Below, piece after piece: positions 1,747-2,066 of a stretch of 13,469 bases of DNA. Origin of the DNA: a virus (Duplodnaviria; Heunggongvirae; Uroviricota; Caudoviricetes); the IMG/VR virus record IMGVR_UViG_2548876855_000021. The stretch is one strand, 5' to 3'. The notes below the pieces were generated by a model. The model did no database searches. It had not been told where the DNA came from and saw nothing but the letters and a program-made list of their open reading frames with translations. Both the position numbers and the translations under genes were made by a program. Numbering within the stretch: position 1 is the first letter of the stretch; each line of letters begins with the position of its first letter.

Positions 1747-1766
1747 GTGAACACTTTACTGTTCAC
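1747..1766. repeat. Perfect inverted repeat GTGAACA-N6-TGTTCAC
   Basis: gtgaaca ctttac tgttcac read directly at 1747-1766; the right arm continues as TGTTCACC (1760-1767), the octamer I recall as the P4 alpha-binding type I iteron. Confidence 0.5.
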
Positions 1767-2066
1767 CTTGACTGATTAATAAGTGCATAAAAACCTAATT
1801 TTTGAGCACGGAAGGTATTTGTTCCTTACCCCATTTTTTCTCTTTAGTCCAGTACAACAAAAAATGCGCCCAACAGAAAACTGTTTTGAATTTAAATGCA
1901 ATCGCTTTGTAGTGATTGTAACGTAAGTTGATTTGATGGGTGCGATTTTGTTTAGCGATAATGGTATGTTGTAAAAATCATTTCGTTGCAATAAAATTGC
2001 ATCGCTACATTTTATAGACAATATCAATTAAATTTTAATACTCATTATTAATTTTGAGGCTAACAA

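What the first reader, a model, noticed from the sequence alone, without database searches (positions are those of the whole stretch)
1747..1767. GTGAACA-N6-TGTTCAC palindrome containing the P4 iteron-like octamer TGTTCACC
This is a perfect 7-bp inverted repeat whose right arm reads TGTTCACC, which I recall as the alpha-binding type I iteron of P4 ori/crr. It lies about 1.4 kb beyond the 3' end of the alpha gene and about 5.7 kb from the phased repeat array at 7411-7625, reminiscent of the separated ori and crr sites of P4. It could equally be an operator for the AT-rich cargo gene.
Basis: partly seen in the sequence, partly recalled or inferred. Interest (0 to 1): 0.4.

Follow-up and report, generated by a model that had tools for sequence, protein, structure and literature searches.

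The report
Relic P4-type replication site (crr) palindrome
The palindrome is the best-preserved piece of the "crr" replication site of a P4-like satellite prophage in E. coli O157:H7, the same inverted pair of replication-protein binding sites that ends each crr repeat of phage P4, so it is a correctly recognised but ordinary feature.

Summary
GTGAACA-CTTTAC-TGTTCAC lies at 1747-1766, and TGTTCACC at 1760-1767 is its only copy in the window.

The window is a P4-like satellite prophage of E. coli O157:H7, next to a thrW att remnant. Bases 1652-1767 are collinear with one 120-bp crr repeat of P4. Each P4 repeat ends with the same geometry, GGTGAACA-N6-T(G/C)TTCACC.

The palindrome (at most 1 mismatch) lies 3' of alpha in 42 of 46 loci found through alpha alone whose C-terminal 199 residues are at least 79% identical, usually 55-70 nt after the stop. 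It is absent from all 34 more distant loci. The exact 20-mer, spacer included, is invariant in 24 of 26 single-unit crr copies.

Here a roughly 1.35-kb cargo cassette separates it from the alpha terminator, in a known minor hotspot. The cassette carries a 318-aa protein with a HEPN-like C-terminal domain. Iterons 2-4 of the unit have decayed.

The operator alternative is rejected: elements without the cargo keep the palindrome, and cargo homologues elsewhere lack it. Verdict: a new member of a known kind, of low interest. Whether it still binds alpha or supports replication is untested.

The parts
1747..1766 (.). Palindrome GTGAACA-CTTTAC-TGTTCAC: the two alpha-proximal, inverted type I iterons of the crr-like unit
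   Evidence: Identical 20-mer in L003, L005 and 24 of 26 single-unit crr copies. Same geometry in P4 crr. Exact 20-mer in 43 IMG/VR stretches, 39 of them with an alpha C-terminus in the held locus and a fixed relative orientation.
1760..1767 (+). Perfect P4 type I iteron octamer TGTTCACC. Its inverted partner at 1746-1753 reads TGTTCACT on the minus strand (1 mismatch).
   Evidence: P4 annotation.
1652..1767 (+). Single crr-like unit. It holds an A6-C-T7 tract (1653-1666), iteron 1 TGTTCATA (1677-1684, 1 mismatch to the TGTTCACA found at this position), a decayed iteron 2 CTACTCAT (1685-1692), a T-rich stretch, decayed iterons at about 1723-1730 and 1736-1743, and then the intact palindrome.
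   Evidence: Alignment A1 with both P4 crr repeats. Family alignment: the window matches 19/19 conserved palindrome columns but only 42/49 other conserved columns, against 47-49/49 in the 26 single-unit copies. Shuffle test.
1517..1534 (-). att core remnant: a copy of the 3' end of tRNA-Thr thrW that marks the end of the satellite prophage
   Evidence: Window 1400-1533 matches the thrW flank in island-free E. coli. The tRNA-Thr 3' end overlaps the last 17 nt of that match. ARAGORN finds no whole tRNA in the window.
1768..3117 (+). AT-rich cargo cassette inserted between the crr unit and the alpha terminator. It carries ORF 2067-3023 (318 aa).
3123..3153 (-). Hairpin homologous to the t-alpha terminator of P4. 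The tool called it on the + strand (the stem is palindromic); on the alpha (-) strand it overlaps the alpha stop codon and a run of T follows at about 3111-3114.
   Evidence: (I4). The P4 equivalent at 4604-4628 is annotated 'talpha'.
3156..5546 (-). alpha primase-helicase gene. RefSeq annotates a 777-aa product (window 3156-5489). Its C-terminal region matches the solved P4 origin-binding domain.
   Evidence: 72% identity to P4 alpha. Pfam Zn_Ribbon_Prim, Toprim_3, D5_N and Pox_D5. The last 181 residues match PDB 1KA8, the P4 alpha origin-binding domain, at E = 3e-47.
7505..7640 (+). ori, homologue of P4 ori. It holds phased iterons GTGAACAG 7522, ATGAACAG 7532 and GATGAATA 7542, an inverted CCTTCACC at 7563-7570, an AT/T-rich tract, and GTGAATAG at 7607 and 7617. 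A further cluster lies at 7421-7448.
   Evidence: Collinear alignment with P4 and 55 related loci.

Best explanation
The palindrome is the terminal inverted pair of type I iterons of a single-unit crr (cis replication region) belonging to a P4-like satellite prophage integrated at thrW in E. coli O157:H7.

Shown here: the element carries P4-type alpha, ori, C4 (CI-type) immunity RNA, sid, psu and delta. Bases 1652-1767 are homologous, unit for unit, to the P4 crr 120-bp repeat. The palindrome occupies the alpha-proximal edge of that unit, as it does in P4 and in dozens of relatives.

Inferred from P4 biology: the C-terminal winged-helix origin-binding domain of alpha recognises GTGAACA/TGTTCAC half-sites at both ori (7505-7640) and crr. 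Occupancy of crr in cis would then be needed for initiation at ori, about 5.7 kb away.

In this copy a cargo cassette of about 1.35 kb has pushed crr 1.39 kb away from alpha. Three of the six iteron positions have decayed and the integrase is broken by IS629. The site is therefore most likely a relic: probably still able to bind alpha, with crr function uncertain.
For: - P4 annotation and sequence: TGTTCACC is the type 1 repeat, and each crr repeat ends GGTGAACA-N6-T(G/C)TTCACC, 50 nt from the alpha stop.
- Collinear alignment of window 1645-1785 with both P4 crr repeats. It remains significant without the palindrome.
- Other E. coli P4-like elements (L003-L005) carry one such unit, with the identical 20-mer, directly after the alpha terminator.
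- 45 of 49 loci with alpha C-terminal identity of at least 79% have the palindrome 3' of alpha; 42 of 46 of those were found through alpha alone. None of 34 loci at 74% or less has it. The chance expectation is about 6e-4 per 4 kb.
- The 20-mer is invariant in 24 of 26 units while the bases immediately flanking it vary.
- In IMG/VR, 39 of 43 exact 20-mer hits have alpha in the held locus, always in the same relative orientation.
- The ori of this element carries the same core motif.
- The alpha C-terminal domain matches PDB 1KA8.
- The palindrome lies between the thrW att remnant and alpha, as crr does in P4.
- Alpha binds the origin repeats through a winged-helix domain (PMC4234260). crr is the cis-required region for replication (X51522 annotation; bioRxiv 10.64898/2026.03.30.715334).
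Against: - No binding or replication data exist for this element.
- The unit is the most degenerate of its family, with 42/49 conserved non-palindrome columns against 47-49/49 in the 26 single-unit copies. Only 2 perfect and 1 near-perfect iterons remain, against 5 annotated per P4 repeat.
- The palindrome's perfect preservation relative to the rest of the unit is not statistically distinguishable from chance (Fisher p = 0.089), so selective retention cannot be claimed.
- The closest alpha relative (L042, 94% identity) has a crr remnant without the palindrome. The palindrome is therefore not indispensable for persistence of such prophages.
- The prophage is defective: its integrase is split by IS1203/IS629.
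- The ori iterons are also somewhat diverged from the family consensus.
Confidence: 0.88

Rival explanations
1. The palindrome is an operator for the adjacent AT-rich cargo gene (2067-3023). A dimeric regulator would bind it to control cargo expression.
For: The palindrome lies about 320 nt upstream of the cargo start codon, both here and in an independent E. coli element carrying a 77%-identical homologue (L089).
Against: - The same 20-mer is present in many elements with no cargo gene, where it abuts the alpha terminator.
- Cargo homologues in a Citrobacter conjugative element (80% identity) and in Proteus have no such palindrome within the 5-kb flanks.
- The nearest promoter-like hexamers for the cargo gene are at 1933-2042, at least 165 nt downstream of the palindrome.
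- L089 is simply the same crr-cargo-alpha synteny.
Confidence: 0.03
2. The palindrome is a chance inverted repeat, or a hairpin or terminator element unrelated to replication.
For: Perfect 7-bp inverted repeats are common in the window: 20 observed. The single-strand DNA hairpin has a modest stability of -4.9 kcal/mol, z = -2.6.
Against: - The specific sequence is expected about 0.03 times even when 2 mismatches are allowed.
- It sits in a homologous 115-nt unit.
- It is conserved across genera.
- No T-run follows it, and the terminator scan of 1400-3200 found only the hairpin at the alpha stop.
Confidence: 0.01
3. The palindrome is a fully functional minimal crr: the inverted iteron pair, perhaps with iteron 1, would be sufficient in cis, and the element would still replicate when alpha is expressed.
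For: - The 20-mer is the most invariant part of the unit family-wide, spacer included.
- The alpha ORF and the ori architecture are intact.
- Most natural relatives manage with one unit rather than P4's two.
Against: - Every other family member keeps all six iteron positions, which suggests they are needed.
- The ori iterons are diverged here.
- The integrase is disrupted.
- There is no statistical evidence that the palindrome is selectively retained (p = 0.089).
Confidence: 0.2

Closest known systems
crr (cis replication region) of satellite phage P4, GenBank X51522 4291-4590
   Same: [quoted passage not shown]
- A unit of about 120 bp that opens with an A/T tract, followed by two direct iterons.
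- A T-rich middle, then oppositely oriented iterons.
- A closing inverted pair GTGAACA-N6-TGTTCAC facing the alpha terminator.
- The same iteron core as in ori.
   Different: - One unit instead of two.
- Spacer CTTTAC instead of GTGGAT/TTCGAT.
- Three iteron positions decayed.
- Separated from the alpha terminator by a 1.35-kb cargo cassette rather than about 20 nt.
- The host element is a defective prophage.
Single-unit crr of other enterobacterial P4-like satellites (for example E. coli CUPS SST 5/1 L003, strain 1002W03 L005, and Kluyvera, Raoultella, Mangrovibacter and Edwardsiella loci)
   Same: - Identical 20-mer, including the spacer.
- Same unit layout and orientation relative to alpha.
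- L089 even carries a homologous cargo gene in the same place.
   Different: Those units keep all six iteron positions (47-49/49 conserved columns). Most sit 55-70 nt from the alpha stop.
Iteron clusters of theta-replicating plasmids with auxiliary (control/handcuffing) sites, for example P1 incA and F incB/incC
   Same: A second cluster of initiator-binding repeats, distant from the origin proper, is bound by the same initiator. This comparison rests on general knowledge.
   Different: P4 crr is a positive, cis-required element rather than a negative copy-number control locus. The initiator is a primase-helicase with a C-terminal winged-helix domain, not a Rep-family protein.

Membership tests
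P4-type crr | Lies 3' of the alpha primase-helicase gene, between alpha and the attachment site | tested here: met
   att remnant at 1517-1534, unit at 1652-1767, alpha at 3156-5546 on the minus strand. It is 1389 nt from alpha rather than about 50 nt, because of a cargo insertion.
P4-type crr | Sequence homology and collinearity with the P4 120-bp crr repeat | tested here: met
   Alignment A1. Local alignment beats 2000/2000 shuffles with the palindrome included, and 2000/2000 (repeat 1) and 1999/2000 (repeat 2) with it removed. E = 1e-10 to the L003-type units.
P4-type crr | Multiple type I iterons (TGTTCACC and one-mismatch variants) in both orientations within the unit; P4 has 5 annotated per repeat | tested here: inconclusive
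   Only 1760-1767 (perfect), 1746-1753 (1 mismatch) and 1677-1684 (2 mismatches to TGTTCACC, 1 mismatch to the TGTTCACA found at this position) remain. The other three positions are unrecognisable.
P4-type crr | Two direct 120-bp repeats separated by about 60 bp | tested here: not met
   There is one unit only, with no iteron cluster between 1768 and 3155. Single units are, however, the norm in the CTTTAC-spacer subfamily, so this feature defines P4 itself rather than the family.
P4-type crr | The same iteron motif is repeated in the ori of the same element | tested here: met
   GTGAACAG at 7522 and GTGAATAG at 7430, 7607 and 7617, in an ori collinear with that of P4.
P4-type crr | Bound by the C-terminal origin-binding domain of alpha | not testable with these tools
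   Indirect only: the domain is conserved (1KA8 match at E = 3e-47). The palindrome co-occurs with alpha C-terminal identity of at least 79% (45/49 against 0/34).
P4-type crr | Required in cis for replication from ori | not testable with these tools
   Needs a replication assay. The P4 annotation ('cis required region for replication') is the only basis.
Operator of the neighbouring cargo gene | Travels with the gene and overlaps or adjoins its promoter | tested here: not met
   Absent upstream of homologues outside P4-like elements. Present without the gene. At least 165 nt from the nearest promoter-like site.
Intrinsic terminator | G+C-rich stem followed by a T-run | tested here: not met
   The stem has 3 G-C pairs in 7 and is followed by CTTGACTG. 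The scan did not call it. Hairpin energy is -4.9 kcal/mol.

The most novel reading that the evidence does not exclude
The invariant 20-mer (half-sites plus spacer), not the whole 120-bp unit, would be the essential core of crr, and its outer edge would act as a docking boundary for cargo cassettes.

Cargo begins within 0-20 nt of the last base of the palindrome in several independent elements. In others the cargo sits between two crr units. crr repeats might therefore act as recombination handles for swapping defence genes.

In decaying prophages such as this one, the retained alpha-binding palindrome could couple alpha expression during helper infection to the neighbouring HEPN-like cargo gene.
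Probability: 0.1. Interest if true: 0.45.

Novelty: new member of a known kind. Interest (0 to 1): 0.15.

Why it matters
It confirms that a reader can recognise the P4 bipartite origin (ori plus crr) from raw sequence. It also gives a compact signature for finding crr in P4-like satellites: GTGAACA-N6-TGTTCAC about 55-70 nt after the alpha stop. The large comparative papers on these satellites that I consulted show no occurrence of 'crr' in their text-search counts.

The result places the known minor defence hotspot between primase and att precisely: cargo sits between the alpha terminator and crr, or between two crr units. For O157:H7 it marks this island as a decaying satellite whose replication site is eroding. 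None of this changes the understanding of P4 replication.

Tried and rejected
- **Operator for the cargo gene.** Rejected on distribution and promoter distance.
- **Terminator or structural hairpin.** Rejected.
- **Integrase arm site.** In P4 the annotated arm repeats lie within about 100 nt of the att core and outside crr. Here the palindrome is more than 210 nt from the att remnant and lies inside a crr-homologous unit. Not pursued further.
- **A second crr unit next to the alpha terminator (3024-3117).** None is present.
- **Selective retention of the palindrome within a decaying unit.** The Fisher test is not significant (p = 0.089), so no claim is made.
- **Tandem-element scenario.** The att-like direct repeat at 1508-1526 and 1928-1946 (84% over 19 nt, D3) might have marked a boundary between two tandem elements, so that the crr would belong to a different remnant. 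L089 has the same crr-cargo-alpha order at another integration site, which makes a simple cassette insertion more likely. The repeat remains unexplained.
- **Classical P4 papers.** Flensburg & Calendar 1987, Ziegelin et al. 1993 and Tocchetti et al. 1999 could not be retrieved. Statements that alpha loops ori to crr, and that one repeat suffices, rest on my memory only.
- **The afdb50 fold library** was unavailable.
- **NCBIfam** gave nothing for the cargo genes.

Full report
**1. The observation**

Reading the window gives GTGAACA at 1747-1753, CTTTAC at 1754-1759 and TGTTCAC at 1760-1766, followed by C at 1767.

TGTTCACC occurs only once in 13.5 kb, and a single octamer is not significant (0.34 expected). 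The 7+6+7 pattern with up to 2 mismatches is found once against 0.03 expected. Perfect 7-bp inverted repeats as a class are common here: 20 with loops of 3-10 nt, against about 7 in shuffles. Symmetry alone therefore proves nothing. The case rests on which sequence this is and where it lies.

**2. What the window is**

The window is 99.96-100% identical to the E. coli O157:H7 chromosome. RefSeq annotation of the matching TW14359 region, together with my scans, gives this order:

- A chromosomal LysR gene at 492-1391.
- A stretch at 1400-1533 that in island-free strains ends inside the 3' end of tRNA-Thr thrW. This leaves an att remnant at about 1517-1534.
- An AT-rich 318-aa ORF at 2067-3023.
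- A hairpin homologous to the P4 alpha terminator at 3123-3153.
- An alpha primase-helicase at 3156-5546 on the minus strand, 72% identical to P4 alpha.
- DUF5375, Icd-like and HTH regulator genes, with Rfam C4 antisense RNA and isrK hits.
- An iteron array, followed by genes annotated 'septation initiation protein' (at the position P4 sid occupies), psu and ogr/Delta-like.
- AT-rich cargo that includes proteins annotated as an ABC-three-component system.
- An integrase broken by IS1203/IS629.

This is a defective P4-like satellite prophage.

**3. The recollection about P4**

GenBank X51522 annotates 'ori type 1 repeat' at six sites in ori and ten in crr. The exact octamer TGTTCACC accounts for 11 of these, against 0.35 expected by chance.

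Each 120-bp crr repeat of P4 ends, on its alpha-proximal side, with GGTGAACA-ttcgat-TCTTCACC (4384-4405) or GGTGAACA-gtggat-TGTTCACC (4564-4585). That is the same GTGAACA-N6-TGTTCAC arrangement as in the window.

**4. Homology of the surrounding unit**

Window 1645-1785 aligns collinearly with both P4 repeats. The shared features, in order, are:

- An A/T tract (gAAAAAAcTTTTTTT).
- A first iteron: TGTTCATA here, TGTTCACA in P4.
- A T-rich middle.
- The closing palindrome.

The local alignment score exceeds all 2000 shuffles. With the palindrome cut out, 0 and 1 of 2000 shuffles reach the score.

A sensitive search of 5,426 complete E. coli genomes finds the O157/O55 lineage at 99% identity or more. 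It also finds 55 other records at 60-80% identity, covering exactly window 1653-1769. Three of these were inspected (L003-L005). In each, the match is a single crr unit lying directly between the alpha terminator and the chromosome or att side. All three carry GTGAACACTTTACTGTTCA, ending in C in L003 and L004 and in T in L005.

**5. Conservation**

Using the alpha protein as a probe returned 80 loci from different species. I scanned the 4 kb downstream of alpha for the palindrome, allowing at most 1 mismatch.

| Group of loci | Loci with the palindrome |
|---|---|
| Alpha C-terminal 199 residues at least 79% identical to the window's | 45 of 49 |
| The same group, counting only loci found through alpha alone | 42 of 46 |
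| Alpha C-terminal identity 74% or less | 0 of 34 |

The chance expectation is about 6e-4 per locus.

Two subfamilies appear:

- A P4-like type with two units about 170-180 nt apart and spacer ATCCAC (read on the alpha strand).
- A single-unit type with spacer GTAAAG on the alpha strand, which is CTTTAC as read in the window.

In an alignment of 26 distinct single-unit copies from about a dozen genera, the 20-mer is invariant in 24 of 26, spacer included. Conservation stops abruptly at its last base.

In IMG/VR the exact 20-mer occurs in 43 stretches. Of these, 39 have an alpha C-terminus in the held locus, always in the same relative orientation, and most lie 54-70 nt from the stop.

The more distant elements (Pantoea, Erwinia and others) keep a crr-like unit after the alpha terminator. 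It uses variant repeats and a different inverted pair, for example CTTCACC-N3-GGTGAAG.

**6. The partner site**

Window 7505-7640 is collinear with P4 ori and with the ori of 55 relatives. It has three iterons phased at 10 bp, one inverted iteron, a TTACTGTATTAC box, a T-tract and two more iterons. Here the iterons read GTGAACAG, ATGAACAG, GATGAATA, CCTTCACC and GTGAATAG twice. They are somewhat diverged, a pattern largely shared with the closest relative, L042.

The arms of the palindrome carry the same core motif. Six of the eight GTGAAYA/TRTTCAC 7-mers in the window lie in these two places.

**7. What is unusual in this copy**

(a) The unit is 1389 nt from alpha instead of about 55-70 nt. 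An AT-rich cassette at about 1768-3117 carrying the 318-aa ORF lies between the palindrome and the alpha terminator.

- An independent E. coli element at a different integration site (L089) has the same order, namely crr unit, a 77%-identical homologue, the alpha terminator and alpha. Its unit keeps all six iteron positions but lacks the opening A/T tract.
- Other relatives carry different cargo in this interval or between two crr units. Examples are SIR2-like in L042, AAA_15 (OLD-type ATPase) in L010, Mrr_cat in L032 and FRG in L057, plus several proteins with no domain hit.

(b) The unit is eroded. At columns conserved in at least 90% of family members, the window matches 19 of 19 inside the palindrome but only 42 of 49 outside it. 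The 26 single-unit copies score 47-49 of 49.

- The misses fall in iterons 1-4. Only two perfect or near-perfect iterons (the palindrome) and one one-mismatch iteron survive.
- The contrast between palindrome and remainder is not significant (Fisher p = 0.089). I do not claim that the palindrome is being selectively kept.
- The closest alpha relative (L042, Scandinavium, 94% identity) has a crr remnant in which the palindrome itself is gone.

**8. Mechanism**

The following is established for P4, from the record annotation and from papers I could read:

- crr is the 'cis required region for replication' (bioRxiv 10.64898/2026.03.30.715334).
- Alpha binds the origin repeats through a C-terminal winged-helix domain, then unwinds and primes (PMC4234260, citing Ziegelin & Lanka 1995 and Yeo et al. 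2002; PMC2777425).

The window's alpha retains that domain, with a match to PDB 1KA8 at E = 3e-47.

By inference, the two arms of the palindrome are alpha half-sites whose centres lie 13 bp apart (14 bp counted between the 8-bp iterons). They would be occupied together with the ori iterons, and occupancy of this second site in cis would be what crr contributes.

From memory only, since the papers could not be retrieved: alpha bridges ori and crr into a loop, and one 120-bp repeat suffices. The prevalence of natural single-unit crr copies is at least consistent with the latter point.

For this particular prophage I judge the site a relic. Binding is plausible, but function as crr is doubtful.

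**9. Rivals**

- *Operator of the cargo gene.* The palindrome occurs without the gene. The gene occurs without the palindrome in a Citrobacter conjugative element and in Proteus. The promoter-like sites are at least 165 nt away.
- *Terminator or hairpin.* No T-run follows it, the scan did not call it, and the hairpin energy is -4.9 kcal/mol.
- *Chance.* Excluded by homology and conservation.

**10. Novelty and score**

crr and its iterons are annotated in the P4 GenBank record (X51522); from memory they were described in the late 1980s. This is a homologue in a P4-like prophage, so it is a new member of a known kind.

Three by-products are modestly useful:

- A 20-nt signature for crr.
- The observation that conservation and cargo junctions both end at the edge of the palindrome.
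- A HEPN-like orphan cargo protein.

Interest: 0.15.

Noticed in passing
window 1768-3117; loci L007, L008, L010, L016, L023, L029, L032, L038, L042, L057, L060, L089, L104, L121, L129: The interval between the alpha terminator and crr, or between two crr units up to about 2 kb apart, holds variable cargo: SIR2-like, AAA_15/OLD-type, Mrr_cat and FRG proteins, plus several with no domain hit. Conservation ends at the last base of the palindrome, and cargo starts within 0-20 nt of it. This matches the minor 'primase-att' defence hotspot of PMC13586616. The relation to the crr units may not have been described.
   Followed up: partly
[not shown]
   Followed up: partly
window 1-55 and 13416-13469: Both ends of the window are inverted copies of the same IS1203/IS629 terminal sequence. 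The source strain therefore has one IS copy in the SDR oxidoreductase gene to the left and one in the satellite integrase to the right. TW14359 has only the latter.
   Followed up: partly
window 7421-7448 and 7505-7640: The ori iterons are diverged from the family consensus GGTGAACAGT, reading ATGAACAG, GATGAATA, CCTTCACC and GTGAATAG twice. An extra cluster of three 10-bp-phased TGAATA-type repeats lies about 75 nt upstream. The divergence is largely shared with L042 (Scandinavium), so it predates the O157 lineage.
   Followed up: partly
L042 6380-7990: The closest alpha relative (94% identity, Scandinavium lactucae) carries a different cargo, a 365-aa SIR2-like protein, in the same slot. Its crr remnant has lost the palindrome. 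This suggests independent erosion of crr in this sublineage.
   Followed up: partly
loci L044-L051, L055, L084 (Pantoea/Erwinia group): Distant P4-like elements keep a crr-like unit after the alpha terminator. Their inverted pair has the opposite polarity and a shorter spacer (CTTCACC-N3-GGTGAAG), and their ori iterons read GGTGAAGGAT or GGTGAAGAAT. This may reflect co-variation with the alpha C-terminal domain, which is 71-74% identical.
   Followed up: no
window 1508-1526 and 1928-1946: Direct repeat TTGATTTAAATGGTGCGAT / TTGATTTGATGGGTGCGAT (84%). The first copy overlaps the thrW att remnant and the second lies in the cargo gene's upstream region. It may be chance or a trace of an older att-mediated event.
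   Followed up: no
window 6293-6380 (-) and 6449-6526 (-): Rfam C4 antisense RNA (84 bits) and isrK (72 bits) hits lie inside or next to the Icd-like ORF. This is the P4-type immunity RNA region.
   Followed up: no
window 9780-13057 (-): AT-rich cargo lies in the main psu/delta-integrase hotspot. RefSeq annotates 'ABC-three component system' proteins and an AAA ATPase there. NCBIfam returned nothing for my ORF calls, which use first-start coordinates.
   Followed up: no
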